The notes below the pieces were generated by a model. The model did not search any database. It was given only the letters and a program-made list of their open reading frames with translations, and had not been told where the DNA came from. The translations under genes and the position numbers were made by a program. Shown piece by piece: positions 5,570 to 64,000 of a DNA stretch of 64,000 nucleotides. Numbering within the stretch: the first letter of the stretch is position 1; each line of letters opens with the position of its first letter. Origin of the DNA: a virus (lineage: Duplodnaviria > Caudoviricetes); IMG/VR virus record IMGVR_UViG_3300000439_000015, positions 1 through 64,000 of that record, one strand, 5' to 3'.

Positions 5570-6122
5570 CAATGTAATCACTTTCGTCTGGTGATGCGAG
5601 TGCTTGCGTCTCAGACTTTACCACGGTTAGTGACGGGACGCTAACTGTGCCTGCGCCCAGTTGAAAACCGACGCTGGTGATTGTCTCTTTGTCGTACTTG
5701 TCCTTCAGTTCGTTGTACGCCTTCAGGAAGTGCGAACGCTCCACGCCGATGGTGTCGCTAAAGCACAGCGACGAGAACCCAACGGATTTCACTGCCCCCT
5801 CGATGAGGGGATGCGACCAACGGTTTCCATTTCGGTAGAACTCACGCCCGTGTTGACCGAGGCCGTCGTTCACCTCACGCCATGCCTCGAATGCGGTGGG
5901 GGCGAGGCTGCCGCTGACCTCTGCGCACTTTCTGCGGATGCCAGCGATGGTTGGGAACTTTTCCTCGGTCAACGCCCAGTCTTGGGCCGCACGGATGGCG
6001 ATTCCACCATCAACGTCGGCTAGGAGCATGCTCCACATCTCGATGGTGCCGTCGTTGGCCTTCCATGCTGGAAAGGCGCAGGCGAGGACGTAGCAGACGG
6101 TGGCGGTTTCTTGCTGGTTCAT
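5562..6122 (-). CDS. Helicase loader/inhibitor (SPP1 G39P-like)
   Basis: MNQQETATVCYVLACAFP...MWSMLLADVD...FPTIAGIR, directly downstream of the initiator. Confidence 0.7.
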   Translation of the reverse strand: MNQQETATVCYVLACAFPAWKANDGTIEMWSMLLADVDGGIAIRAAQDWALTEEKFPTIAGIRRKCAEVSGSLAPTAFEAWREVNDGLGQHGREFYRNGNRWSHPLIEGAVKSVGFSSLCFSDTIGVERSHFLKAYNELKDKYDKETITSVGFQLGAGTVSVPSLTVVKSETQALASPDESDYIDG

Positions 6123-6982
6123 TACAGGTGCCTCTTCATGAAGTTTTCGATGGCGGTCAGGGCGTTCCCAGCCTTGTTGGGTGCTGGGGCAACAGTCTCG
6201 CTGATTCCAGCGCCCGTGTCAAGGAAATCTTGGTAGCGGAGAGACGAGCCGAAGAACGTTGCGCCGTGGAGTGTGTACATCTCTGGTTCACCACGACGAC
6301 TGGCGGCGTAGTTCTCGGTGGCCTGTATCAAGCGCACCACGGTTTCACCAGCACGGATGCGAGCAACGAAGTTTTCCTGTGCCTTGCCTTTGTTGATTTT
6401 GCGTGGGTAGAGCCGCCAGACTTCCTCGAACTCTGCCGAGTACGGCTTCTCCTTCTTTGCCCGTTCGGATTTCACTGGCTCCAAAATGTGTCCGTCGCCC
6501 GATTTTTCGGGTGACGCAAAAGAACTATCTTCAGTACTTACTTCATTCAGTACTTGCTTTGATTCAGTACTTACTAAGTGGGGCACTTCACCGTCAACGG
6601 TGGAACCGTGCACGGTTGAGCCGTTGACGGTAAACCCGTCCACGGTTTCATCAGGGATTATGAGGATTTCACTGCCTATAGCGACCTCGTGCACCACCCG
6701 TTCGACGTGCGAGAACTGGCCTTTTTCGTCGTTGATGCGCTGTCCGTTGTTGGTGATGTAACCGAGGGATTCCAACTCGCTGAGGATGGTGAGGACTTTC
6801 TCCTTTTTAGCCTTGGGCGATTCCTTCACGAGGTGGTTCACCATGATGACCCAGTTGTCGGGCTTCGAGATGAGGTAGGCCAGCATGCCCTTGGCTTCCC
6901 ACGAAAGCCGAGCGTCGTTGAGGGTGACGTTGGGCATGATGGTGAAAGACTGGCGAGTGACGGACGGACTGCGACGTATCAC
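6122..6982 (-). CDS. Phage replication initiator (HTH N-terminus, DnaB2-like C-terminus)
   Basis: Start reassigned to GTG 6982 behind AAGGAG; FTIMPNVTLNDARLSWEAKGMLAYLISKPDNW and FEEVWRLYPRK motifs. Confidence 0.8.
   Translation of the reverse strand: MIRRSPSVTRQSFTIMPNVTLNDARLSWEAKGMLAYLISKPDNWVIMVNHLVKESPKAKKEKVLTILSELESLGYITNNGQRINDEKGQFSHVERVVHEVAIGSEILIIPDETVDGFTVNGSTVHGSTVDGEVPHLVSTESKQVLNEVSTEDSSFASPEKSGDGHILEPVKSERAKKEKPYSAEFEEVWRLYPRKINKGKAQENFVARIRAGETVVRLIQATENYAASRRGEPEMYTLHGATFFGSSLRYQDFLDTGAGISETVAPAPNKAGNALTAIENFMKRHL
6530..6650. repeat. Iteron-like repeats inside the initiator gene (candidate origin)
   Basis: TTCAGTACTT at 6530, 6546, 6563; four 15-bp units with a CCGTnnACGGT core at 6591, 6606, 6621, 6636. 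Confidence 0.6.
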
Positions 6983-50937: not shown

Positions 50938-50962
50938 AGGATTTAGCGTACCACAGTAAAGC

Positions 50963-50998
50963 AAAATCCCCCCCGAACCCGAAGGCCGAGGGGGATTT
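50963..50998 (-). terminator. Intrinsic terminator after the major capsid gene
   Basis: AAATCCCC...GGGGATTT stem with T-tract on the minus strand. Confidence 0.75.
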
Positions 50999-51016
50999 CA
51001 CTGAACTGCTTTGGAA

Positions 51017-52003
51017 CTAGATAATCGAGTTCCAGAAGAAGCCGAGGTCGGCGGCAACAACCTTGTCGTCGAAGGCGATTTCACCTTCAACACGGTCAGC
51101 CTTCAACTCTTCCATGCGGAAGCGTGAAACACCAACCGTGGTGCCGAGGCCACCCGAAACGCCAGTCCACATAAACGTGTAACCAGCCGAAGGGGTCATC
51201 AGACCAGGGTTAGGAGCCGAGTAGCACAACAGAGCGTTGTTGTTGGCGGTGAAGTTGTACGAGCCGGTCAAGCCTTCGTCAGCGTTGTTGACGACTGCCT
51301 TGGCGACGAGCACACGGTCAAGACCGAAGAGTTGAGCAATCAAGTCCTCGGTGATGATGGCACCAGCCTGCGTGTACTTGTAGCGGTCAACCAGCGTGGG
51401 GTGAGCCTTCAACTTCTGAAACACGGGGTACGAGAGCACGAGCGTGTTGGGTTCGTAACCAGTGTTCTGAAGAACCTGATACTTGGCCCACTCGATGTCC
51501 ACGATGGGCAGACCGTTGGTGTAGTCAGACCACTTGATGGTGGTCGCCGTACCAGCGGTACCTGCACCAGCGGTTACACCGATAGCGTCGGTGCCCCACA
51601 CGCCACCCTGAAAGAAGTCCTGCGCCCACTGCACTTCACGGCGCAGCAAGAGACGCTGGGTGACGAACTGCGTCGCTTCCATGTCGGGGTTGAGGGGGTT
51701 GTCGGCGTTAGCACGGGTCTGGTCGCCAATGTCCTTGTGGAAGGCGAACACGTCGGCCTGATAGGTGTCCGTGGTGAGGCCGTAACCTGAACCAGCGGAA
51801 GCCGTACCGTCGGCACGACGCTGAGCCTCGTCACGGAACCAGTCGTCCTTGGTGTACTTGAAGTAGAGGTTCGACTTCTTGTCCACTGGAACGACAGGGA
51901 AAACCTTGTCCGCAATGAAGTTGTTGGTGTTCTGCAAGTACGCAACCGAGATGTTCGTCAGGATTGCGTCAATGTGAACGTTGTTTACTGATGGCTGTGG
52001 CAT
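51017..52003 (-). CDS. Major capsid protein
   Basis: HIDAILTNISVAYLQ...IADKVFPVVPV...ITEDLIAQLFGL...VVAADLGFFW. Confidence 0.9.
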   Translation of the reverse strand: MPQPSVNNVHIDAILTNISVAYLQNTNNFIADKVFPVVPVDKKSNLYFKYTKDDWFRDEAQRRADGTASAGSGYGLTTDTYQADVFAFHKDIGDQTRANADNPLNPDMEATQFVTQRLLLRREVQWAQDFFQGGVWGTDAIGVTAGAGTAGTATTIKWSDYTNGLPIVDIEWAKYQVLQNTGYEPNTLVLSYPVFQKLKAHPTLVDRYKYTQAGAIITEDLIAQLFGLDRVLVAKAVVNNADEGLTGSYNFTANNNALLCYSAPNPGLMTPSAGYTFMWTGVSGGLGTTVGVSRFRMEELKADRVEGEIAFDDKVVAADLGFFWNSII

Positions 52004-54818: not shown

Positions 54819-55098
54819 CTTCAACGGCAGAACCCGTGGTTTCCTCGGCGTACTGGACAAGGTGGCTGGCGGTAGCAAGAGTGCTCAGACTGTCAATCTG
54901 GCCTTCCAACTTGGTGATGTGGTCGCCTGCCTCGATGACGGCCTTGGTGAGGCGCTCGTTGTCGGCTGCCAACTGCGTAAGCGTGGCGCTCTGCTTGTGG
55001 GCGAGGTTGATAAGGGCGGTGATGTCATTGTCGTCAGGGGTGCCCTGCACGACGGCCTTCATGATGCGTTCGGTCAGTTCGTCTAGGTTGCTGCTCAT
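54811..55098 (-). CDS. Coiled-coil hypothetical protein
   Basis: ATG 55098 behind AAGGAG; heptad pattern. Confidence 0.65.
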   Translation of the reverse strand: MSSNLDELTERIMKAVVQGTPDDNDITALINLAHKQSATLTQLAADNERLTKAVIEAGDHITKLEGQIDSLSTLATASHLVQYAEETTGSAVEVA

Positions 55099-55156
55099 AA
55101 CACTCTCCTTGGTAGGGGGGTTGCCTAACTCTAGTGTATCACCACTATTTATGAAA

Positions 55157-55519
55157 TCAGACATTCCCAACGTATCGGAGCACGGCGGCGTTCTCGAAGG
55201 TTGTTTTGGCGGTGTATTCCACCTCAGTTGTTTTGCCGCAGTCGTTGCACTGAAGGGGCATGGGGTTAGCGATTTTGCGAACTCGCCAGTCGTGAGAGCA
55301 GTAGCGAACATCACCATTGTTGACAAGACGGATGTTGCGTCCGTTTGCGCCAACCTTGATTAGCCCTTGTTGCTCTAGTGCTTTGAGGTGAACCGAGATG
55401 GTAGAGGTCGAAGAGATGCCCACACCAGCACCTATGGTGCGATACGTCGGGGCGTAGCCGAGATTATCCCAGTGCCAGCCGATGTATTTGAGTATCTTGT
55501 CCCGTGTACCTGTAGCCAT
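55157..55519 (-). CDS. LexA-type winged-HTH regulator with a C-terminal Zn ribbon (no peptidase domain)
   Basis: KILKYI...GYAPTYRTIGAGVGISSTSTISVHLKALEQQGLI; CSHDW...CNDCG. Confidence 0.75.
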   Translation of the reverse strand: MATGTRDKILKYIGWHWDNLGYAPTYRTIGAGVGISSTSTISVHLKALEQQGLIKVGANGRNIRLVNNGDVRYCSHDWRVRKIANPMPLQCNDCGKTTEVEYTAKTTFENAAVLRYVGNV

Positions 55520-55543
55520 TCACCACAGCGTAGCAGGGTTTAG

Positions 55544-56023
55544 TTATTCGGCGTGAGTGTTGGCAAGCATGCCAGTGGCGGTATCAGCATTGAAGGAAGC
55601 GATTGCCGCCCTCTGAGCCAAAGCCTGAGCCGCTGGGTCTTTCTCGTATGACGCTTGTCCGCCCAATGGGGCGATGTGGTCGAGAATGGCCTCGTGAGCC
55701 TGCGCTGCATCGAGGTGGGCCTGAATCGCACGGGTCGCACGCATGCGGTCACCGTTAGACATTTCACTGCTGTGCTTCAGAACCATGTTCTTGATTCCTT
55801 CGGCGGTGGTGCGGTGAATCTGGGCGAGGGGCTTGGTCAGGCCATTGGAGATGCCGATGCCACGAGCGAAGTTCTGGGCGTTGGTGGAAAGGAAGTGCGA
55901 ACTGCTCACGGCCTTTTCCATGTCTGCACCCGACTGCCACTGGTTGCCGTGGAAAGCGTGGCCCTTGACATCACCCTTAGCCAACTGTACCCACGCAATG
56001 ATTTCGTTGTTCAGATTGTCCAT
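55544..56023 (-). CDS. GNQ-tag family protein
   Basis: QLAKGDVKGHAFHGNQW, then His/Ala helices. Confidence 0.75.
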   Translation of the reverse strand: MDNLNNEIIAWVQLAKGDVKGHAFHGNQWQSGADMEKAVSSSHFLSTNAQNFARGIGISNGLTKPLAQIHRTTAEGIKNMVLKHSSEMSNGDRMRATRAIQAHLDAAQAHEAILDHIAPLGGQASYEKDPAAQALAQRAAIASFNADTATGMLANTHAE

Positions 56024-56559
56024 TAGATACCTTCCGAGAAACTTCCAACGCCAGCGGCTTGCTCGGCGCTACGGACGTTGTTTTCAGCAGCATCAACCTT
56101 ATCTTGTGCGTCACTCATACGTTGTCCCGTGGCGTGGGCTGGGTCGGCGTTGGTGATTGTGTCACGGTTCGCCTCAAAGTTTTTGGTGTCACGGGCTGCA
56201 CTTGCCAAACCAGCGTGGGCGTTGGCTGCGCTTTCGTGGGCGGTGGCAACATCACGGAGTTTTCCAGCCATTGAGCCAGTCGCCTTGTCTGCCATTGCGT
56301 GGTACATCTGGGCTTGCTGATTGTGCGAAGCGCTTTGCTGCGTTGAGGTGGCTTCAGCGTTGCGACCTGCGTTCATCATGTCGTTTGCACCCCAGCGGCC
56401 TGGGTCTACACGACGGGCTGGCTGTGCTGAAGCGCCAGTCGGGATGCCGCCAGTGTGCTGGTTCCCATTGAAGGCATGGCCTGCGGTTTCGTACTTCAAG
56501 ATTTCACCAACCTTGGCCCAGTTTGGGGCAAGTGCGTCTGTTGAGAAAGGGTTTGTCAT
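56023..56559 (-). CDS. GNQ-tag family protein
   Basis: MTNPFSTDAL...EILKYETAGHAFNGNQH; start ATG 56559. Confidence 0.75.
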   Translation of the reverse strand: MTNPFSTDALAPNWAKVGEILKYETAGHAFNGNQHTGGIPTGASAQPARRVDPGRWGANDMMNAGRNAEATSTQQSASHNQQAQMYHAMADKATGSMAGKLRDVATAHESAANAHAGLASAARDTKNFEANRDTITNADPAHATGQRMSDAQDKVDAAENNVRSAEQAAGVGSFSEGI

Positions 56560-56563
56560 TTGA

Positions 56564-57499
56564 TTACATTCCTTCGTCTGCGCCCGTGGCACTACCTAGG
56601 CGTTCGGCAACCATGCTGGCACCTCGTGCAAGCATGGTGTTGTCACGGAGAATAGGACTTGTTGAGCCGCTTGCGTGTTGTTCGGCAACCCAGTTGTGAA
56701 GTTCTGCGGCGTGGTCGTGGGCGGCGATTGCCGACTTCAGAGCGCCCTGCTTCTCAGGGTTAGTCTCCTTGGCAAGGGCGTTTTTCAGCACTTGGCTGGC
56801 AATGCCGTGCTCGAAGGCTGCTGCACGGTGGGCGTTGGCGATTTGTGCGCCAGTACCACCGTGCTGAACAAGGTCACGAGCGTGCGAGGCAGCCATGAGA
56901 GCAGACCAGCCAGCGCCGTCCCGTCGTACATGGTCAAAGCCCTTGTCGAAGGGGTTTGAGGCGTACTGATTGCCGTGAAACTCGTGGCCCTTTACGTCGC
57001 CCTTCGTCACAAAAGACTTTTCAGCACCAGAGAGGATGACGTTGCCGTCGGTCACGCCTGCATTGCGACCAGACGTTGCCTTCATGGTTGCATCGGCGGC
57101 TTTCAGGGTGTTTTCAGCACTGGGGTTGTCGGCAGCGGCGTAGTGTGCGGCTGCTGCGGCTTCGTGCAACTTGGCGGCACCCTCTTCCATTGCGTATGAA
57201 CGCCCGTTGGGGTTGTGGTAACTGGCGACAAGTTGACGCAAGCGCCCTGCCTCTTCGAGGTGCATACGAGCCATGCGGTCATGGGCCATGGTAGAAACGG
57301 TTGGCGACTTTTTGCCTGCGCTCGCTGCCATCTGCGACGCTCGGTCACGAAGTGAGTTCAGAGCATCCCGTGTTTCACCAGTGGAACGAGCCGTGTATTG
57401 GTTCCCGTTGAAAGCATGGCCTGCCAACTCGTACTTCAGGATTTCACTGGCGGACTTCCAAACTGGAACCAGTGCGTCAGTAGAGAAGGGGTTTGTCAT
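56564..57499 (-). CDS. GNQ-tag family protein with two tagged modules
   Basis: MTNPFSTDAL...EILKYELAGHAFNGNQY and internal FVTKGDVKGHEFHGNQY. Confidence 0.8.
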   Translation of the reverse strand: MTNPFSTDALVPVWKSASEILKYELAGHAFNGNQYTARSTGETRDALNSLRDRASQMAASAGKKSPTVSTMAHDRMARMHLEEAGRLRQLVASYHNPNGRSYAMEEGAAKLHEAAAAAHYAAADNPSAENTLKAADATMKATSGRNAGVTDGNVILSGAEKSFVTKGDVKGHEFHGNQYASNPFDKGFDHVRRDGAGWSALMAASHARDLVQHGGTGAQIANAHRAAAFEHGIASQVLKNALAKETNPEKQGALKSAIAAHDHAAELHNWVAEQHASGSTSPILRDNTMLARGASMVAERLGSATGADEGM

Positions 57500-57509
57500 T
57501 ATGTTTTCC

Positions 57510-57941
57510 TCACTTTGGCAGGTCAGCGTTGCCGTAGTGGTTTACCGCAGCCATTGTCTGGTTTACTGCCTTGGAAGCGTCTGTCGCTACGTTCTTGTTG
57601 CTGTAGTCCGCAACCTTGGCCCACGTCTTTTGAGCAGCGAGGTGCGCTTGGGCGAGGGCGTTCAGGTTGCCAGCAACGTCTTTGTAGCCAGTTTCGTTTC
57701 GTGCTGCCATTGCTTTGGCTGCTTCACCACGGTGGTACTCCGCCATGCCCAAAGCGTCTGCACGGTTTGGTGCACCGCCAATACGGTCACTGCCAACTTT
57801 GGCTGCTCGTCGCACAATGTTGTCCGTTCTGCCCGAAGTGAACTGGTTGCCGTGAAAGGGGTGACCATCAACGTCGCCTTTAGCCACGGGGTAGCGAGAG
57901 AGTGACTTGAGTAGTTCGTCGGTGTGGAAGCCAGATGACAC
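57510..57941 (-). CDS. GNQ-tag family protein
   Basis: MSSGFHTDELL...YPVAKGDVDGHPFHGNQF; RBS AAGGAG. Confidence 0.75.
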   Translation of the reverse strand: MSSGFHTDELLKSLSRYPVAKGDVDGHPFHGNQFTSGRTDNIVRRAAKVGSDRIGGAPNRADALGMAEYHRGEAAKAMAARNETGYKDVAGNLNALAQAHLAAQKTWAKVADYSNKNVATDASKAVNQTMAAVNHYGNADLPK

Positions 57942-58014
57942 GAGGTTCTCCTTGTAGGGATTTCTACCTCAGATACTACGCCACGATTTCCTAAACCGAT
58001 GTTCCAAAACCCCA

Positions 58015-58043
58015 TTGACGGTGGTGATAAACGGTGCTAGACT
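58015..58043 (+). promoter_or_regulatory. Promoter of the small antisense RNA
   Basis: TTGACG-17-TAGACT with extended TG. Confidence 0.75.
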
Positions 58044-58049
58044 TCGCCC

Positions 58050-58128
58050 GACTGACTTGGGGGCGCTGGACACAACGCCAAGTACATTCACACCGACCCC
58101 TGCCGAAAGGTGGGGGATTCGGTTTATT
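58050..58128 (+). ncRNA. Putative ~79 nt trans-acting antisense sRNA
   Basis: Own promoter; 5' hairpin ACTTGG/CCAAGT with loop CTGGACACAA; 3' GAAA-loop terminator (G.U pairs favour the plus strand) plus TTTATT; 14-nt identity to 59987-60000. Confidence 0.65.
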
Positions 58129-58621
58129 GGGGCCTGTTTGCGTCCCAAAGTGAGGTGAAATGGCCTCGCTCCGCTTCGCCAATGTGCTCCAAGAGCAGGT
58201 ATCCATCGAGATGGTCTGTCTCGTGCTGAAAGATGCGAGCGAGCAATCCTTCCCCGTCAATCCTGTACTGGTTCCCGTCAAGGTCAAGGGCCGTCAAGGT
58301 CGCTTTGTACGAGCGGCTGATTTGCCACCCGAACTTGGGCACCGACAAGCATCCTTCGGGCGTGACCTCGATGTCAAGGGGGTCAGTGAAAACCTCTGGG
58401 TTGATGGCGACGTGAGCGCCCGTGCCGTCGCCGCTGTCCCAAACGAACATGCGGTGCGAGTAGCCGATTTGGTTGGCGGCAAGCCCAACACCGAGGTGAA
58501 AGTACATGGCCTCAACCATCTCGGCGGCAATCATCTTGATGTTGTCTGTGATTTCACTGACCGAGGTCGTGGGGGCTTCCAAAATGGGGTCGCCATAGAA
58601 ACGCAGGGCTGGGATGTTCAT
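58124..58621 (-). CDS. def: Peptide deformylase
   Basis: GVGLAANQIG, EGCLSV and QHETDHLDG motifs; start ATG 58621. Confidence 0.92.
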   Translation of the reverse strand: MNIPALRFYGDPILEAPTTSVSEITDNIKMIAAEMVEAMYFHLGVGLAANQIGYSHRMFVWDSGDGTGAHVAINPEVFTDPLDIEVTPEGCLSVPKFGWQISRSYKATLTALDLDGNQYRIDGEGLLARIFQHETDHLDGYLLLEHIGEAERGHFTSLWDANRPQ

Positions 58622-58884
58622 CGTGCGCCCATCTCTCTCTTTGCCTCTTCGAGCAGTTCGGCGGTGAAGTCCTCTGGCGACAGTTCGGTCTTGGCGTGGG
58701 CCATCAACTTGCCGCAAGCGATGCTGAACGCCCATGTGTACAGGCTGAGTTCCTCGTCGAGGTGCGTCAACTCCTTGCGGTAGCCGAGAACCATCTGGTC
58801 GTGCTTGGCAATCAGCCCTGCCGTCCCAGTGCGCATGGTAGCCAACTTCTCTTCGAGGTCGGCAATCTGCTCCGACTTACGCAC
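58618..58884 (-). CDS. Coiled-coil hypothetical protein
   Basis: 88 aa, overlaps both neighbours. Confidence 0.6.
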   Translation of the reverse strand: MRKSEQIADLEEKLATMRTGTAGLIAKHDQMVLGYRKELTHLDEELSLYTWAFSIACGKLMAHAKTELSPEDFTAELLEEAKREMGAR

Positions 58885-59029
58885 GGTACTTCTCTGGCAC
58901 TGGGCCTGTGTACGGAGCGCCGTTCAGGTCTGAGGTGAACGGGAAACGTGTCGAGCACTGCTGGCACATGACGTAGGTCTTAGCGCCTGCGTTCATCAGA
59001 ATCCACTTGTGGAAGGCGCAACTAGCCAT
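58877..59029 (-). CDS. Small Zn-ribbon protein (50 aa)
   Basis: MASCAFHKW...VMCQQCSTRF; manual translation; overlaps both neighbours. Confidence 0.55.
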   Translation of the reverse strand: MASCAFHKWILMNAGAKTYVMCQQCSTRFPFTSDLNGAPYTGPVPEKYRA

Positions 59030-59195
59030 GCTGAACCGTCATGACGTATTTGCTGGCGTTGGCGGTGAACGCCTGCGCCTCTTCCTTCGTGGCGAAGTCG
59101 GGCGATGTCATGACGGTGTAGTAGTAGCCATCACCACCTTGGTAGGTCTTGAAGAAGAACCCGTTGCCATTCCAAATCTCGACGACTTTACTCAT
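59022..59195 (-). CDS. Small hypothetical protein
   Basis: MSKVVEIWNGNGFFFKTY...FATKEEAQAF. Confidence 0.55.
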   Translation of the reverse strand: MSKVVEIWNGNGFFFKTYQGGDGYYYTVMTSPDFATKEEAQAFTANASKYVMTVQHG

Positions 59196-59398
59196 CAAAT
59201 AAACGCCTTCATGTCTTGCGCTTCTGCTTCCCATTGCTCTGGTGAACCGAGACGAACGACGTGCAAGCACACGTCCGTGCCGTTCTCCATGAGTTCTGAT
59301 TCGGTGTCGGTCAACTCCACGCCTGCGTGGGTTTCGCACACCTGCTGGGTGCAGAACTTGTTGTCAATGCCGTACTGAAGCCACTCATCAAAGGTCAT
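59195..59398 (-). CDS. Small hypothetical protein with Cys/His motif
   Basis: MTFDEWLQYGIDNKFC...VCETHAG...DVCLHVVRL. Confidence 0.65.
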   Translation of the reverse strand: MTFDEWLQYGIDNKFCTQQVCETHAGVELTDTESELMENGTDVCLHVVRLGSPEQWEAEAQDMKAFI

Positions 59399-59408
59399 GG
59401 CGTTCACC

Positions 59409-59942
59409 TTAGCAGCCGTCGGCGTTCCATTCTGGGTGGATTCCGCCATTACGGTTCCAATAGAAGGCGGCGACACGGAACTGGTCTGCGATGCTCGCAT
59501 CTTGGGCGTACTGGGCGGTGATGCCAAGGGCGTGAGCGCCGAACTGCCACGTTGGGGGCATGAACTGGAAGATGCCTGCTGCGCCTTCTGGGTTCACCTC
59601 ACGGTAGTTGTGGAAGTCCGTGGGGGTCGAGCGAGATTCACGCCACATGACGCAGGTGAAGGCCGCTCGGCTCGGTGGTGGGAGCAAGTCCGTGTAGCCA
59701 CCAGAGGGGGCTGTGTGGCTCGCTACGGGCTTTGGCTTGGCTTTGTGGTGAACCACAGGCTTGGCGACGTGAGCGTGCACCACGGGGCGGCTGTTGCCGT
59801 ACCAGAAGATGGTAATCATCTTGGGCGTAGTCGTCCGAGCGGCGAGGTGATAGGCCACCTTGGGCGCAGCGTGGAACGTTCCTACGACAAGGGAGACTAC
59901 GACTGTCAGTGCGAGGAAGCCACCTCGCACCGTGCCTAGCAC
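59409..59942 (-). CDS. Secreted/anchored Rpf-like lytic transglycosylase
   Basis: N-terminal hydrophobic helix, Pro/His/Lys linker, CVMWRES...AAGIFQFMPPTW...QDASIADQ...W...C lysozyme-like domain; start GTG 59942 inferred. Confidence 0.75.
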   Translation of the reverse strand: MLGTVRGGFLALTVVVSLVVGTFHAAPKVAYHLAARTTTPKMITIFWYGNSRPVVHAHVAKPVVHHKAKPKPVASHTAPSGGYTDLLPPPSRAAFTCVMWRESRSTPTDFHNYREVNPEGAAGIFQFMPPTWQFGAHALGITAQYAQDASIADQFRVAAFYWNRNGGIHPEWNADGC

Positions 59943-59995
59943 GAGCCTGCCTTGGTAGAGGGATAGAACGGTACCGCTATTGGGTTGCTGGACAC
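59936..59995 (-). CDS. Leader uORF (19 aa) overlapping the Rpf-like start
   Basis: AAGGAG-6 nt-GTG; MSSNPIAVPFYPSTKAGSC*; ends in GTGCTAG overlapping the Rpf GTG. Confidence 0.5.
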   Translation of the reverse strand: MSSNPIAVPFYPSTKAGSC

Positions 59996-60031
59996 AACGC
60001 ACTCCTTTGGTTGCCCATTGGGGGATGCACC

Positions 60032-60060
60032 AGTTTACCCGAATGTGACGGATAAGGCAA
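60032..60060 (-). promoter_or_regulatory. Promoter of the uORF-Rpf-def operon
   Basis: TTGCCT-17-TAAACT. Confidence 0.65.
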
Positions 60061-60137
60061 GTACTAAGCGATTTCCTTGCAAATAAAGGGTTTTGCCCAC
60101 ACCGTCGAGGTGATAGAAAAAAAACATGCAAAAAGAC

Positions 60138-60167
60138 TTGACAGATGTCACACGGGGGTGCCATACT
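60138..60167 (+). promoter_or_regulatory. TGTCAC-box promoter 5 (drives the large ncRNA)
   Basis: TTGACA-18-CATACT with TGTCACA at 60146-60152, then GGTTAGGTA as at 9169. Confidence 0.8.
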
Positions 60168-60173
60168 GGTTAG

Positions 60174-60504
60174 GTAAGAAAGCAGCAGTGCCGAGGTGCG
60201 CTTGTAAAGTCCCCACGAGAAAGTGGTCGAGCAAGCCGAAGGCCAGCCTGTGAGCCGTACCACCTGTTTGCGACACGGGCGCATTCAGTAAGGCCGTAGG
60301 GAGTTCGGAGCGAACTACGGCGAGGTGGGTACGGAACTCCTAGTGGGGGTGAGTGTTAGGCGTGAGGAAAAGCGCAAACCACCGAACCGCAAGGGGTAGG
60401 GTCGGGCGCTCGTTGGGAAACGGGTAGTCCGCCAGTGACATCAGTACGGAAAACCAAGGCTACCGAGTTAGAAGTCCCCTCAGCAAAGGCTGGGGGGATT
60501 TTCT
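60174..60504 (+). ncRNA. Putative large structured ncRNA (~330 nt), family unassigned
   Basis: Promoter plus terminator, no plausible ORF; nested long-range stems and GNRA loops (see findings). Confidence 0.7.
60472..60504 (+). terminator. Terminator of the large ncRNA (abuts the polyprotein stop)
   Basis: AAGTCCCCTCAGC-AAAG-GCTGGGGGGATT-TTCT. Confidence 0.7.
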
Positions 60505-62092
60505 ATTTGTAGACCTCGTTCAGCACTTGATAGTGGATTTGGCTTGCCTTGTCGTCGTCGCCTGCCTCGTGCGCCTCTTGCTCTTGGGCGAGCAGTTTGG
60601 CAGCCTTGTCGCTGAGGTGTTCTTCCTTGGGCTTCGTTGCCTTTTGGAACGGGAGCAGGGCGTACTTGGCCCAGATTTCGCCAGCGGTTTTGGAAACGTC
60701 GCCTTTTTGGACTGGGCTTTCCCAAACAACTGCGTCGGGGTTCCAGATTGAGTAGTTCGTGTGGTCTTTGGGCTGCGAAATGTCTTGTTGTGAAACTAGG
60801 GTCATCTTGCCATCTACGTTTGCGGTCTTTCCATCCTCTTCGTTGGTTAGGCCGCTTGTAAATAACTTCGCTCCATCTCTAAGTTTCCCACGGAGTACGG
60901 TTCCGCCCTCACCAGCGTAGGCACGAGCGACTTCTTCGCTATCGGTTGCGTAAACTGCTTTTCCGTCTAGACCGATTTCTTTCTTGCCGCTTAGGGTATC
61001 CGAGACTGCTTGCGAACTTCTTACGCCTCGATAAACGGTTACTCCACTTGCGTCAGTCGTTTCCCACTGATTTCCGTGAAAGACGTGGCCCTGAACGTCG
61101 CCCTTTTGGACGTGCCGCTCTACCATGGACTTCGCCCACGAGTAGCCAGCATCACCACCCCACGCATCCCACGCCACACGTCCGTGCGACGGGTATCCGT
61201 GTTCACCCTGACGGAAGCCTTCTGCCTTCTTGTCGGGCTGGTGACGGTCAAAATACGCCTTCATCCGCTTCAGAGTGTCCAGTGAAATCTGGTGCCCGTT
61301 ACCGAGGTCTGACGCACGCTTGCGCCCGACGTTGGTGAACCCTGAGCCAGCCTTGCCGTCGGCAATCCATTCCAATGCTCGCTTAGCGGCCTCTTGTACC
61401 CCCTGCGGCGGAGTGAACGTATCCTTCTTCACCGCAAAGTGGGCAGCGAGGGTTTGGAACACGTCAATAAGGCGGTTCAAGTTGTCAATCATCTGGGCGT
61501 ACTTGTCGTCCATGCCGAGTTGGTGAAACTCATCCTGTAGCGCCTCTAGACGGGGCCGTAAGCCTGCCAGCGTCTCCAAGGTCAGTCCTGCGTTCCAAAG
61601 GGCTGTGGCGACCTCTGGGGTGGCTTCACGGACACGAAAGTTGCAGAGAGCGTGGTCAATGCCGACTATTCCACCTTGGGCAAACATCAGGTTCTTGGGA
61701 CGACGGTCTGCGTTGGCGGTGATGTAGTCGAACAGGCGTAGGTTTCTGCCTTGGTTATCGTTTGGGTAGCAGTCCTCGCTGCCGAGTTCCAATCCTGACT
61801 TGCCGTCAATGTACGGCATAATCACCATCTTGGCATCGGTTCCCACAAAGCGGCAGTCACGGACGGGGGCGTTCATCGCCTCTCCGACACGGGCGGCGAG
61901 ATACTCCTGAGCGGCGAGTATTTCAGCACGGTACAAACGACCCGTCTTGTTGCCGTGCCAGTCCTTCATGTGCTTCTCGACCCCTTCGGAGCCATCAGCA
62001 AAGCGAACACGGAACATTCCGTCGTTCTGGTTGCCCTTCACAAACATGGGTTCACGAGACACGATGTCCGTGCTGGTGAACGGCACGAACAT
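60503..62092 (-). CDS. Multidomain GNQ-tag protein: HipA/PI3K-like kinase, conserved phage head domain, ART-like domain
   Basis: QEYLAARVG...FDYITANADRRPKN...GIDH; TPPQGVQEAAKRAL...GRVAWDAWGGDAG; VQKGDVQGHVFHGNQW then VYRG...GKAVYATDS...ARAYA...YSIWNPDAV. Confidence 0.75.
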   Translation of the reverse strand: MFVPFTSTDIVSREPMFVKGNQNDGMFRVRFADGSEGVEKHMKDWHGNKTGRLYRAEILAAQEYLAARVGEAMNAPVRDCRFVGTDAKMVIMPYIDGKSGLELGSEDCYPNDNQGRNLRLFDYITANADRRPKNLMFAQGGIVGIDHALCNFRVREATPEVATALWNAGLTLETLAGLRPRLEALQDEFHQLGMDDKYAQMIDNLNRLIDVFQTLAAHFAVKKDTFTPPQGVQEAAKRALEWIADGKAGSGFTNVGRKRASDLGNGHQISLDTLKRMKAYFDRHQPDKKAEGFRQGEHGYPSHGRVAWDAWGGDAGYSWAKSMVERHVQKGDVQGHVFHGNQWETTDASGVTVYRGVRSSQAVSDTLSGKKEIGLDGKAVYATDSEEVARAYAGEGGTVLRGKLRDGAKLFTSGLTNEEDGKTANVDGKMTLVSQQDISQPKDHTNYSIWNPDAVVWESPVQKGDVSKTAGEIWAKYALLPFQKATKPKEEHLSDKAAKLLAQEQEAHEAGDDDKASQIHYQVLNEVYK

Positions 62093-63073
62093 TTAGAAAC
62101 TCATTCCGTGACTTTGCCCGTAAGTAACTGCGCCCATTTGGAAACGGCTCATCATGTCGTTGTAATCGCTCGCACGACCCATCGAGGCGAATGTGTCTCT
62201 CAAACCAGACAGCGTGTTTGCCATGCCCATGATGTCGTTTCTGCTGGGGTTGCCAAGCAGTGAAAAGTTTGGCATGCCTGTCAAGCGACCCAACCTCGTG
62301 CCCACCGTGGCACCGTCGAAAGCCATGGCGTGGTCAATGCCGAGAATCGAACCGTCCTTTTGCACCCAGACGTTGCCTGGGTTCATGGCGTTTCGACCAC
62401 CAAACACGCCGTCGCCGTTGCCGATGAGTTCACCAAAGAAGCGCAACTGGTTCAAGCGATTGGCGTTGTCGGGGTTCAGACTGTGCAGGGCGCTGGGATT
62501 GTTTCCGCCATTCACACCGGCAATGTCGGCGGCAGGCTTGCCTTCAAGCCATGGTTGGACAATCTGGTTTTTGTTTCCAGCAACACCCTCGCAACAGCGG
62601 ATGGGCATGCCGAGGGCTTCGCCAACCTTAGATGACAAGATTTCGTTCTGCGCTTGGCGTGAGGCGGTCAAACCCTGAGCAGGGAACGGCTTGAAGTTCT
62701 TGATGGCTCCGACAGAACCGTCCTTCATCTCGACCTTTTGAAAGCCTTTGTTCATTGCTCCGCCCATGCGCATTACACCACCTAACGGCTTGTTGATTTC
62801 CGAAGTGTTCAACCCTACCGCTTTGCCCGTTGTCTTTAGGGGCGGCGCTGGCTTAGATGGTGCGGCGGCTGGTGCGGCGGCACGCCCAGCGGTTGGTCGG
62901 GGCGCACGGCCCACCCGTGGAATGGCTGGCTGAACAACACGAACTGCACGTCCACCGCCGTTTCCACCTGCACCGCCTCGGAAGTTGCCGTTCTCGTCAA
63001 GCCATTGGTTACCGTTGAACTTGTGGCCTGGCAACTCGTATTTCAGTACACGGAGAATCTGACGGAAGTCCAT
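62093..63073 (-). CDS. GNQ-tag protein with HipA/PI3K-like kinase domain
   Basis: VLKYELPGHKFNGNQW, Pro/Ala/Arg linker, QNEILSSKVGEALG...LIGNGD...PGNVW...GIDHAMAF. Confidence 0.75.
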   Translation of the reverse strand: MDFRQILRVLKYELPGHKFNGNQWLDENGNFRGGAGGNGGGRAVRVVQPAIPRVGRAPRPTAGRAAAPAAAPSKPAPPLKTTGKAVGLNTSEINKPLGGVMRMGGAMNKGFQKVEMKDGSVGAIKNFKPFPAQGLTASRQAQNEILSSKVGEALGMPIRCCEGVAGNKNQIVQPWLEGKPAADIAGVNGGNNPSALHSLNPDNANRLNQLRFFGELIGNGDGVFGGRNAMNPGNVWVQKDGSILGIDHAMAFDGATVGTRLGRLTGMPNFSLLGNPSRNDIMGMANTLSGLRDTFASMGRASDYNDMMSRFQMGAVTYGQSHGMSF

Positions 63074-63075
63074 GG

Positions 63076-63291
63076 TTACCCCTCTAGGAACGAAACGTAG
63101 GCACCGTTTGTCCAGTCCTTGCCGAGGTACGCAATGGTCTGCGCATCATCGGCACCCATCATCTTGCATGTGTCAACGAGGTTTTGGGCAACGCCCGTCA
63201 CCGAGGTGATTGAATCGCCATCGAACACGATTGTTCCGCTTGGAGCAGCATCGGGATTGTTGACGGGAACGAAGATGATTGTCTGTGCCAT
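63076..63291 (-). CDS. Small hypothetical protein (71 aa)
   Basis: ATG 63291 with TAAAGT 7 nt upstream; ends WTNGAYVSFLEG 2 nt before the kinase start. Confidence 0.65.
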   Translation of the reverse strand: MAQTIIFVPVNNPDAAPSGTIVFDGDSITSVTGVAQNLVDTCKMMGADDAQTIAYLGKDWTNGAYVSFLEG

Positions 63292-63320
63292 ACGACACAC
63301 TTTACTATGGGTTTGGTGAT

Positions 63321-63719
63321 TTAGACAGTTGGAGTTGAGGCAGTCTGAACGTAGTTCTGCCCACCTACGCCCCACTGCTGATACTGCGAAGGCTTGTCGC
63401 TACTGGGATTTGGAAGAACCTTCTGTCCAGCAACGAGTGACCAACGGTTGTCAATCGGGCGAGAGCAGGTGGAACAGGTGCGTGACTGCGAAGAGGCAGC
63501 GAACTGACCCGTGATGGAGCCGTCGGCGTTGCGCTCAATCCAAGTGTCGGGAACCTTGATGGTATTGGAATGCCCCGACGCACACGTTGCAGTGAAAAGC
63601 AGGTTCTTAGCGTCAAAGGCGTTCAGTCCGCCCGTTGAGTGCTGGTTGCCACGAAAGACGTGGCCCTTCAAGTCGCCCTTTGTAATGGGGTACAAGAGTG
63701 CGTCGGTGCTGAAGTCCAT
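63321..63719 (-). CDS. GNQ-tag protein with Zn-ribbon payload
   Basis: MDFSTDALLYPITKGDLKGHVFRGNQH; CASGH...CSTC. Confidence 0.75.
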   Translation of the reverse strand: MDFSTDALLYPITKGDLKGHVFRGNQHSTGGLNAFDAKNLLFTATCASGHSNTIKVPDTWIERNADGSITGQFAASSQSRTCSTCSRPIDNRWSLVAGQKVLPNPSSDKPSQYQQWGVGGQNYVQTASTPTV

Positions 63720-63720
63720 G

Positions 63721-64000
63721 CTACGAGTTTACCGTAGGGTTTGCGAGTATCCCGATTTCGCACATGCAGTCGGGGTGAAATGGCGGCAGGTCTGCGTCGC
63801 TTGTGACGGGCAGTCCGTCTTGAGCCTGACACTCTGGGCAAGCGCCATCAGCAGCGATGATTTGCATCTGAGCGCCGTTGGCTTGGAGTGTGTTCCTTAC
63901 GCCGAGGTTGAATCCACGGTTCGCCTCTGTGTTGGCAATCATCATGGCTCGATGTTCGGCGGCTATTTCAGCAACCACTGCCGCCATAATCGCCGCTTTG
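63721..64000 (-). CDS. C-terminus of MuF / SPP1 gp7-like head morphogenesis protein (runs off window end)
   Basis: RAMMIANTEANRGFNLG...DGACPECQAQDG...PPFHPDCMC. Confidence 0.85.
   Translation of the reverse strand, partial: KAAIMAAVVAEIAAEHRAMMIANTEANRGFNLGVRNTLQANGAQMQIIAADGACPECQAQDGLPVTSDADLPPFHPDCMCEIGILANPTVNS

What the first reader, a model, noticed from the sequence alone, without database searches (positions are those of the whole stretch)
58015..60007. Trans-acting antisense sRNA whose loop matches, over 14 nt, the start codon of a leader ORF upstream of the Rpf-like gene
Seen: a plus-strand unit with promoter TTGACG-17-TAGACT (58015-58043), a ~79 nt transcript, and a GAAA-loop terminator at 58092-58128. 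Its 5' hairpin presents GCTGGACACAACGC (58065-58078), which recurs exactly at 59987-60000. On the minus-strand mRNA that site reads GCGUUGUGUCCAGC, covering the spacer, the GUG and two codons right after AAGGAG. A further 5 bp (TTGGG) can form across a small internal loop. Under a uniform base model a 14-mer match anywhere in the window has probability of only about 0.01-0.02, and it falls on a ribosome-loading site. The sRNA sits at the far end of the very operon it would silence. Established analogue: the P1/P7 C4 antisense RNA controlling icd-ant through a small coupled ORF. Inference: a timing switch for a cell-wall hydrolase/deformylase operon.
Basis: partly seen in the sequence, partly recalled or inferred. 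Interest (0 to 1): 0.85.

Follow-up and report, generated by a model that had tools for sequence, protein, structure and literature searches.

The report
Phage sRNA silencing its own operon
An uncultivated actinophage-like virus carries, at the tail end of a small gene cassette, a roughly 79-base RNA gene on the opposite strand. Its loop is the mirror image of the ribosome-loading site at the head of that cassette, and three diverged phage lineages keep the match, so it is probably a built-in RNA brake, although no experiment has yet shown the RNA.

Summary

The repeat alone is weak evidence: the window holds 112 direct repeats of 14 nt or more, and random sequence gives about 9. Comparative data carry the case. 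Relatives fall into three lineages.
- A is the window type.
- B has about 58% protein identity in the adjacent gene.
- C has an sRNA that is barely alignable outside the core.

All keep these features:
- a plus-strand sigma70-like promoter, with conserved hexamers and diverged spacers;
- a 5' hairpin with two compensatory pairs;
- a GNRA-loop terminator whose G.U pairs work only on the plus strand;
- 13 to 18 contiguous complementary bases to the SD-GUG of a 19-25 codon leader ORF.

The leader's stop always overlaps the GTG of a transglycosylase-like gene. The duplex edges shift through changes on either partner, including one G:C to A:U swap. The genes between the two sites vary (deformylase, methyltransferase).

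Best reading (0.6): a convergent antisense sRNA blocks leader translation and, by coupling, the downstream gene. The architecture is closest to pAD1 par RNA I/II and the logic to P1 c4-icd-ant. It is a member of neither family: a new variant of a known kind.

No expression data could be obtained. The scan has noted comparable, non-homologous self-targeting phage sRNAs elsewhere.

The parts
58015..58043 (+). sRNA promoter: TTGACG, 17 nt, TGc-TAGACT (extended -10)
   Evidence: Scanner; among only 13 sites scoring 10 or more in the 85-kb genome. Hexamers and TGn are kept while spacer and flanks diverge in L083, lineage B and lineage C.
58050..58128 (+). Predicted ~79-nt sRNA (start inferred 7 nt after the -10; end inferred at the U-rich tail)
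   Evidence: Fold -32.7 kcal/mol, z -3.6. Covariance model R1 finds homologues in all lineages. A 1-nt indel in the loop between lineages excludes coding on either strand.
58050..58089 (+). Hairpin 1: interrupted 10-bp stem that presents a 17-19 nt loop
   Evidence: Two pairs change on both sides between lineages A and B (U-A to A-U, A-U to U-A). Lineage C has a different stem (GUUCU/AGAAC) around the same loop core.
58065..58078 (+). Loop core GCUGGACACAACGC, complementary to the leader start region; contains a CUGG (YUNR-type) turn
   Evidence: The YUNR reading is from my own knowledge and was not tested.
58057..58061 (+). UUGGG, second short helix with CCCAA of the mRNA across a 2x2 loop
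   Evidence: 4-6 bp in lineages A and B, absent in C.
58093..58128 (+). Terminator: CCGA-CCCCUGCC-GAAA-GGUGGGGG-AU-UCGG, then UUUAUU; overlaps the deformylase stop codon (58124-58126)
   Evidence: It has an invariant U.G pair and G.U/A-U/G-C variation that would be C.A mismatches on the minus strand. The loop is GAAA, GCAA or GGAA across lineages.
60032..60060 (-). Operon promoter: TTGCCT (60060-60055), 17 nt, TAAACT (60037-60032)
   Evidence: Read. It scores 8 of 12, below the scanner's threshold. TTGNNN/TAAACT is kept while the spacer diverges in L147, L148 and L152.
60002..60007 (-). Shine-Dalgarno AAGGAG of the leader ORF
   Evidence: invariant in all relatives.
59987..60000 (-). Target GCGUUGUGUCCAGC: spacer, GUG start (59995-59993), codons 2-3
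   Evidence: It is the best accessibility-corrected trans site in the genome (-17.1 against -12.8 kcal/mol for the next).
59980..59984 (-). CCCAA, partner of the sRNA's UUGGG
59936..59995 (-). Leader ORF, 19 codons (MSSNPIAVPFYPSTKAGSC); its stop lies inside GTGCTAG
   Evidence: The ORF is kept in seven variants of 19-25 codons. It always overlaps the GTG of the next gene (GTGCTAG or GTGA).
59409..59942 (-). Transglycosylase-like (Rpf/SLT-like) protein, 177 aa, with an N-terminal membrane anchor
   Evidence: Pfam SLT E 0.025 and PF06737 E 0.034, both below cut-off, in all 3 aligned members. Relative P0010 carries PF06737.
58618..59398 (-). Four small genes (67, 57, 50 and 88 aa) of unknown function
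   Evidence: no PHROG or Pfam match; homologues are present in lineage C.
58124..58621 (-). Peptide deformylase, the last gene of the operon
   Evidence: PF01327, E 1e-40.

Best explanation
A convergent, self-targeting antisense sRNA brakes a portable gene cassette.

The minus-strand cassette is: own promoter, 19-codon leader ORF, transglycosylase-like gene, four small genes, peptide deformylase. At its 3' end sits a plus-strand sRNA gene of about 79 nt, with its own sigma70-type promoter and a terminator that overlaps the deformylase stop codon.

Proposed mechanism:
1. The apical loop of the sRNA's 5' hairpin pairs with the cassette mRNA about 1.9 kb upstream. A 14-bp helix covers the spacer after AAGGAG, the GUG and codons 2-3, and a 5-bp helix follows.
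2. This occludes 30S binding, so the leader is not translated.
3. The leader's stop overlaps the GUG of the transglycosylase-like gene, which has only a weak SD of its own. Blocking the leader therefore lowers translation of that gene by loss of coupling, and possibly of the genes behind it through polarity or decay.

Shown: the sequence anatomy, and its conservation and co-variation in relatives. Inferred: that the RNA is made, that pairing represses, and when in infection this matters.
For: 1. The sRNA gene is under selection on the plus strand.
- The -35 and TGn/-10 elements are conserved while the spacer and flanks diverge (WIN against L083, lineage B and lineage C). The scanner calls the promoter independently in lineage C.
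- 97.7% of the structure's cells pair across six distinct sequences, against 33-55% when partners are slid.
- Two hairpin-1 pairs change on both sides.
- Thirteen terminator cells are G.U, which would be C.A on the minus strand.
- The tetraloop stays GNRA: GAAA, GCAA or GGAA.
- The plus strand folds better than the minus strand: -32.7 against -28.0 kcal/mol.
- A covariance model built from lineages A and B finds the lineage C gene at E 0.0026.

2. Complementarity is the conserved feature.
- The longest word shared between the sRNA hairpin and the rest of each locus is always the leader start: 14 nt in A, 14 in B, 13 in G001 and 18 in C. The next best word elsewhere is 8-11 nt.
- The duplex edges move through changes on either partner. 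The mRNA changes G to A while the sRNA changes C to U (G:C to A:U). One pair towards the SD is gained by a 1-nt deletion in the mRNA. Two more pairs are gained in C by sRNA changes.
- Each sRNA binds its own lineage's target better than the other lineage's.

3. The target is a real start.
- AAGGAG is invariant.
- The leader ORF is kept across 3n indels in seven variants, and its stop always overlaps the next GTG.
- The region is less structured than shuffled controls (z +2.1).
- It is the top accessibility-corrected trans site in the 85-kb genome.

4. The genes between the two sites vary (deformylase present or absent, a methyltransferase inserted), while both ends are kept.
Against:
- The invariant 12-nt core TGGACACAACGC never varies, so covariation rests on a few flanking positions and few independent events. 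One genome (G001) has an A.A mismatch at the covarying position.
- Identity of two DNA copies is predicted equally by gene conversion or by a shared protein-binding site.
- The 5' UTR is conserved as a whole block, not only the paired stretch.
- Cross-lineage duplexes are only slightly weaker for the A-type sRNA.
- The operon promoter is a modest match (8 of 12).
- The U-tract of the lineage B terminator is poor.
Confidence: 0.6

Rival explanations
1. The sRNA is real but acts only in cis. It is fully antisense to the 3' end of the operon mRNA and to any read-through into the downstream cargo genes. It would serve as a convergent-transcription or RNase III-type insulator and bidirectional terminator. 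On this view the match to the leader is a relic of the duplication that created the element.
For: The sRNA terminator overlaps the deformylase stop codon, so the two transcripts must overlap. The similarity to the leader region extends, with gaps, over about 30 nt, as a diverged duplicate would.
Against: A relic should decay. Instead the contiguous match is kept at 13-18 nt in three lineages, while the rest of the sRNA diverges to near-unalignable, and its edges are re-made by new substitutions. The core sits in the apical loop of a covarying hairpin.
Confidence: 0.17
2. The two copies are DNA-level sites: binding sites for one phage or host protein, or recombination or boundary sequences of an exchangeable cassette. 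Their identity would be maintained by that function or by gene conversion.
For: They are direct repeats that flank a segment of variable gene content. Both copies change in parallel between lineages, as gene conversion would also produce.
Against: - The motif is not palindromic and has no third copy in 85 kb.
- The conserved module extends beyond the repeats on both sides, since both promoters lie outside them. The repeats are therefore not the cassette boundaries.
- This model does not explain the plus-strand promoter, the G.U-dependent terminator or the covarying hairpin around copy 1.
- Outside the core, one A-lineage position is U.G-compatible rather than identical.
Confidence: 0.08
3. Nothing is transcribed from the plus strand. 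The hairpin is simply the terminator of the minus-strand operon, the promoter-like hexamers are chance, and the 14-mer is one of the many chance repeats in the window.
For: 14-mer repeats are common in the window. Promoter-like sites at 9 of 12 occur by chance about 1.6 times per 5 kb.
Against: - On the minus strand the hairpin carries C.A mismatches and UUUC or UUGC loops.
- The hexamers are conserved through complete spacer turnover in four variants.
- The repeat persists in lineage C as an 18-mer.
Confidence: 0.06

Closest known systems
par locus of Enterococcus faecalis plasmid pAD1 (RNA I / RNA II, type I toxin-antitoxin; review PMC4147584)
   Same: An mRNA and a small antisense RNA are transcribed convergently. 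[quoted passage not shown] Direct repeats in the DNA make the sRNA complementary to the 5' translation-initiation region of the mRNA, where it blocks ribosome binding.
   Different: - In par the mRNA is about 200 nt and encodes one hydrophobic toxin, Fst. Here it is a 1.9-3.1 kb polycistronic operon.
- Here the blocked ORF is a non-hydrophobic 19-25 codon leader coupled to a transglycosylase-like gene.
- There is one long repeat (plus a short one) rather than DRa and DRb.
- There is no sequence similarity and no evidence of a toxin.
c4 antisense RNA of phages P1 and P7 controlling icd-ant (Citron and Schuster 1990, as cited in PMC8198154)
   Same: A phage-encoded antisense RNA with short, non-contiguous complementarity blocks the start of a small upstream ORF. 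Translation of that ORF is needed for expression of the gene behind it.
   Different: c4 lies upstream in the same transcript as its target and is processed out of it. Here the sRNA has its own promoter, lies on the opposite strand and sits at the far end of the operon. Rfam, which holds the C4 family, gives no match.
sar RNA of phage P22 and OOP RNA of lambda (cis-encoded phage antisense RNAs; from my own knowledge)
   Same: Short phage RNAs with their own promoter and terminator, read against a phage operon.
   Different: Those act only on the sequence they overlap. Here the proposed regulatory pairing is with a site about 1.9 kb away through a repeated word.

Membership tests
C4 antisense RNA family (P1/P7/P4-type; Rfam) | Sequence and structure match to the Rfam covariance model | tested here: not met
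   No Rfam family matches 55000-64000 at E up to 1.
C4 antisense RNA family (P1/P7/P4-type; Rfam) | The RNA is co-transcribed upstream of its target on the same strand and processed out | tested here: not met
   The unit has its own promoter and terminator, on the strand opposite the target, at the 3' end of the operon.
C4 antisense RNA family (P1/P7/P4-type; Rfam) | The target is the start of a small ORF coupled to the regulated gene | tested here: met
   The leader ORF's stop overlaps the next GTG in seven variants.
par/Fst-type type I toxin-antitoxin | Convergent mRNA and sRNA that share a terminator | tested here: met
   The terminator at 58093-58128 overlaps the stop codon of the last operon gene. 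The same holds in lineage C. This is anatomy only; the transcripts were not observed.
par/Fst-type type I toxin-antitoxin | Direct repeats make the sRNA complementary to the mRNA's translation start | tested here: met
par/Fst-type type I toxin-antitoxin | The regulated ORF is a small hydrophobic membrane toxin | tested here: not met
   The leader peptides (for example MSSNPIAVPFYPSTKAGSC and MSSNVSIKSSTSYPSLKDGQ) are polar and have no membrane-spanning stretch.
Free-standing bacterial-type sRNA gene | Promoter, no coding potential, conserved secondary structure, intrinsic terminator | tested here: met
   A frameshifting indel in the loop excludes an ORF on either strand.
Free-standing bacterial-type sRNA gene | A detectable transcript | not testable with these tools
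Peptide deformylase (PF01327) | Pfam match above the gathering score | tested here: met
   E 1e-40, 139 bits against a cut-off of 22.8.
Rpf / transglycosylase-like domain (PF06737) or SLT (PF01464) | Pfam match above the gathering score | tested here: inconclusive
   - The scores are 15.3 and 14.6 bits, below the cut-offs of 27 and 21.3, but are seen in all three aligned members.
- A relative with the same N-terminus carries PF06737.
- There is no PDB sequence match.
- The AlphaFold model is unusable, with pLDDT 39.6.

The most novel reading that the evidence does not exclude
The two conserved ends form a portable, RNA-gated expression cassette. An sRNA gene at the 3' end and its target at the 5' end bracket exchangeable cargo: a transglycosylase, a deformylase, a methyltransferase and small genes.

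The sRNA gene lies in the path of the phage's long minus-strand transcripts. Late read-through would collide with its promoter and also produce a perfect antisense sponge for the sRNA. The brake on the leader would therefore be released only when upstream late transcription arrives. The arrangement would work as a transcription-sensing temporal gate that moves between phages as a unit.
Probability: 0.2. Interest if true: 0.75.

Novelty: new variant of a known kind. Interest (0 to 1): 0.6.

Why it matters
Very few phage-encoded base-pairing RNAs that regulate the phage's own genes are understood. Almost all come from enterobacterial phages. None that I know of comes from actinophage-like viruses or from uncultivated freshwater phages.

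- **Architecture.** This case links the regulator and its target at opposite ends of a cassette with exchangeable contents. That combines the par-type layout (direct repeats, shared terminator) with c4-type logic (a coupled leader ORF).
- **What it would show.** If confirmed, it shows how an accessory module that carries a potentially harmful cell-wall enzyme can bring its own post-transcriptional brake.
- **Testability.** It offers a compact, testable sRNA-target pair with natural seed variants of 13, 14 and 18 nt.

Tried and rejected
- **Cultured relatives:** megablast of 57400-60400 against cultured phages found nothing.
- **RNA databases:** Rfam found nothing in 55000-64000 at E up to 1. 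There are no tRNA or tmRNA genes in the window.
- **Exact 14-mer across IMG/VR:** the scan gave over 100 single chance hits and was uninformative. Anchoring on the flanking sRNA or UTR sequence instead worked.
- **Is site 1 the start of a small gene (MSSAPK...)?** Rejected. It has no SD, and a 1-nt indel shifts the frame between lineages.
- **Is there a plus-strand ORF inside the sRNA?** Rejected for the same reason.
- **Are the repeats target-site duplications or att-like cassette ends?** Rejected. Both promoters lie outside the repeats, yet they move with the module into different genomic contexts.
- **Does the sRNA pair with the neighbouring long non-coding RNA?** No contiguous complementarity was found.
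- **Full-length RNAduplex scan:** uninformative because energies are inflated without accessibility terms. It was replaced by an accessibility-corrected scan.
- **Structure of the transglycosylase-like protein:** the model has pLDDT 39.6 and was not used. PDB sequence searches were empty.
- **Close relatives (93-95% DNA identity):** these proved uninformative for covariation, because the intergenic regions are about 99% identical.
Full report
**Setting.** The window is the first 64 kb of an 85,207-bp IMG/VR virus record. GC content is about 55%, and essentially all long ORFs lie on the minus strand. Its major capsid protein (51017-52003) is about 50% identical to those of Arthrobacter and Microbacterium phages. 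I therefore treat it as an uncultivated actinophage-like virus.

**Observation.** The 14-mer GCTGGACACAACGC occurs exactly twice, both on the + strand, at 58065-78 and 59987-60000.

The plus-strand unit:
- The promoter is TTGACG-17-TGcTAGACT at 58015-43.
- The predicted RNA starts near 58050. It folds into a 5' hairpin with a 17-19 nt loop that carries the 14-mer.
- The terminator is CCGA-CCCCUGCC-GAAA-GGUGGGGG-AU-UCGG followed by UUUAUU.

On the minus strand the second copy reads GCGUUGUGUCCAGC. It sits directly after AAGGAG (60007-60002) and contains the GUG at 59995.

That GUG opens a 19-codon ORF whose TAG lies inside GTGCTAG. The GTG of that motif (59942) starts a 177-aa protein with an N-terminal membrane anchor.

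Four small genes and a peptide deformylase follow (PF01327, E 1e-40). The deformylase stop (58124-26) lies inside the tail of the plus-strand terminator, so the two transcription units converge and overlap.

**Is the repeat more than chance?** Not by itself. The window holds 112 direct repeats of 14 nt or more, many of them in collagen-like genes. First-order Markov sequences of the same length give about 9. The case has to rest on context and on relatives.

**Relatives.** Protein- and DNA-anchored scans produced three lineages.
- **Lineage A.** This is the window type: G002, G005, L141, L146, L147, L148/L153, and L083, which covers the sRNA only.
- **Lineage B.** Members are L137, L145, L150, L136, L152 and G001. 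The adjacent protein is about 58-60% identical to the window's.
- **Lineage C.** This is G006, a 95-kb contig. Its operon is 3.1 kb long, and its sRNA shares little with A and B apart from the loop core.

The very close relatives (93-95% DNA identity) are uninformative for covariation. Their intergenic regions are about 99% identical, which is more conserved than the genes.

**Evidence that a plus-strand RNA gene is under selection.**

1. Promoter.
   - In L083 the spacer and the upstream flank are completely different, but TTGACG and TGcTAGACT are kept.
   - In lineage B the promoter reads TTGATT-17-TGaTAGA(C/A)T, with a diverged spacer.
   - In lineage C it reads TTGACA-17-TAGACT. The scanner calls this one independently.
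   - In the whole 85-kb genome only 13 sites reach this promoter quality. Several others lie upstream of minus-strand genes at 76-84 kb, which suggests this is the phage's ordinary host-polymerase promoter type.

2. Structure.
   - On six distinct sequences, 97.7% of cells pair in the two-hairpin model. When partners are slid, 33-55% pair.
   - Two hairpin-1 pairs change on both sides between A and B (U-A to A-U, A-U to U-A).
   - RNAalifold recovers the same structure.

3. Strand.
   - The terminator has an invariant U.G pair.
   - Another of its pairs is G.U, A-U or G-C in different genomes, and there are further single G.U pairs. In all, 13 cells would be C.A mismatches on the minus strand.
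   - The tetraloop stays GNRA on the plus strand: GAAA, GCAA, and GGAA in lineage C.
   - The plus strand folds better than the minus strand: -32.7 against -28.0 kcal/mol.

4. Coding potential. A 1-nt indel in the loop (GCG-C against GCGAA or GCGAU) shifts every frame. The unit therefore does not code on either strand.

5. Homology search. A covariance model built from A and B finds the lineage C gene at E 0.0026, at the expected place and strand.

**Evidence that the pairing is the conserved feature.** For every genome where both sites are visible, I took the sRNA hairpin and looked for the longest word it shares with the rest of the locus. The longest word is always the leader start.

| Lineage | Shared word | Length |
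|---|---|---|
| A | GCTGGACACAACGC | 14 |
| B | TTGGACACAACGCC | 14 |
| G001 | TGGACACAACGCC | 13 |
| C | TTGCTGGACACAACGCCT | 18 |

The next best word elsewhere is 8-11 nt long. The distance between the two sites varies (1917-1934, 2465 and 3119 nt).

The 12-nt core TGGACACAACGC is invariant, but the duplex edges are re-made.
- Between A and B the mRNA changes G to A and the sRNA changes C to U, so a G:C pair becomes A:U. G001 has A at that position and loses the pair.
- A 1-nt deletion in the mRNA of B and C brings a G opposite the sRNA's C and extends the helix towards the SD.
- In C, sRNA changes add U:A pairs at both ends.
- A second helix, UUGGG(G):(C)CCCAA, is kept at 4-6 bp in A and B.
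- A third short helix shows U.G in A and A-U in B.
- Cognate duplexes are more stable than cross-lineage ones. The difference is about 13 kcal/mol for the B sRNA and about 1 kcal/mol for the A sRNA.

In the window's genome, a crude accessibility-corrected scan ranks the leader site as the best trans target on either strand: -17.1 kcal/mol against -12.8 for the next. This result is expected from how the finding was selected, so it is not independent evidence.

**The target is a genuine, coupled start.** AAGGAG is invariant. The leader ORF is open in seven sequence variants of 19, 20, 24 and 25 codons. Its stop always overlaps the GTG of the next gene, as GTGCTAG or as GTGA. The start region is less structured than shuffled controls.

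The operon promoter keeps TTGNNN-17-TAAACT while its spacer diverges in L147, L148 and L152.

The downstream gene is only weakly recognisable as a transglycosylase. Pfam SLT and PF06737 score below their cut-offs in all three aligned members. A relative with the same N-terminus carries a bona fide PF06737 domain.

**The cassette idea.** Between the conserved ends the gene content varies.
- The deformylase is absent in G001.
- A DNA methyltransferase is inserted in L148, L150 and C.
- The module sits in different genomic neighbourhoods.

Both promoters lie outside the repeats and travel with the module. The repeats are therefore not transposon-type or att-type ends.

**Mechanism proposed.** The sRNA loop contains a CUGG or UUGG turn; the YUNR reading is from my own knowledge. 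The loop nucleates on the leader start, and the helix spreads into the 5' arm of hairpin 1. This occludes the ribosome, so the leader is not translated and coupled initiation at the overlapping GTG falls.

Whether this acts early, late or in lysogeny is not known. The sRNA gene lies in the path of minus-strand read-through. A plausible but untested extension is that late transcription silences and sponges the sRNA and so releases the cassette.

**Comparison with known systems.**
- The anatomy matches the pAD1 par locus: convergent RNAs, a shared terminator, and direct repeats that give complementarity to the translation start (PMC4147584).
- The logic matches P1/P7 c4-icd-ant, in which a small coupled ORF is blocked (PMC8198154, citing Citron and Schuster 1990).
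- It is a member of neither. There is no Rfam match, it lies on the opposite strand with its own promoter, and the leader is not a hydrophobic toxin.

**Weaknesses.**
- There are no transcript data.
- The core never varies.
- The covariation rests on few positions and few events.
- Gene conversion, or a shared DNA-binding protein, would also keep two copies identical.

I put the full chain (RNA made, pairs, represses through the leader) at about 0.6.

**Other notes from the scan.** Earlier scan notes describe comparable, non-homologous self-targeting phage sRNA candidates in other genomes. I did not test them, and they did not change this reading.

Noticed in passing
window 60138-60504 (+): There is a second plus-strand non-coding unit. 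Its promoter is TTGACA-18-TGcCATACT and it has a clean terminator at 60471-60502, about 330 nt apart, with no ORF and no Rfam match. It is divergent from the leader promoter in lineage A. In lineage B a homologue of about 600 nt with the same 5' and 3' ends lies in tandem just upstream of the sRNA promoter (L133 about 850-1483). In G002 the middle is replaced. It is absent from the lineage C module.
   Followed up: partly
window 60035-60055: An inverted repeat, TTATCCG-N7-CGGGTAA, fills the spacer of the operon promoter and is unique in the window. It could be an operator, but it is only partly kept in L147, L148 and L152.
   Followed up: partly
window 58124-59942 compared with L131/L133, L147, L148, L150, L159: The genes between the leader and the sRNA are exchangeable. 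The deformylase is present in A and C but absent in G001. An N6/N4 DNA methyltransferase is inserted in L148, L150 and lineage C. Three small genes (a 57-aa WNGNG...Y protein, a 50-aa zinc-ribbon-like protein and an 88-aa protein) recur.
   Followed up: partly
L009/L138-L142 (G005-type relatives), protein P0010: In these close relatives the first 80 residues of the transglycosylase-like protein are kept, but the C-terminal domain is swapped for one that Pfam recognises as PF06737 (Rpf-type). This is a domain replacement behind an identical leader and anchor.
   Followed up: no
window 50952-51043 (-): There is a weak covariance-model hit (18.5 bits, E 0.035): a hairpin plus terminator just after the major capsid gene on the minus strand. 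It is probably only terminator likeness. A similar hit lies in L083 at 6028-6125.
   Followed up: no
window 51017-52003 (-): This major capsid protein is about 50% identical to those of Arthrobacter and Microbacterium phages. That is the only clue obtained to the host group.
   Followed up: partly
window 55544-64000 (-): The cassette interrupts a run of genes that share a KGDxxGHxFxGNQ motif (for example P0002, P0003 and P0004), which other readers also noted. The module's flanks differ between relatives, so it behaves like an inserted moron-type unit.
   Followed up: no
window 60011-60019 and 59980-59986 (-): CCCAAU occurs on both sides of the SD-GUG. In lineage B both copies read ACCCCAAUG. 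Each is complementary to UUGGG(G) in the sRNA and to AUUGGGG just after its terminator. The meaning is unknown.
   Followed up: no
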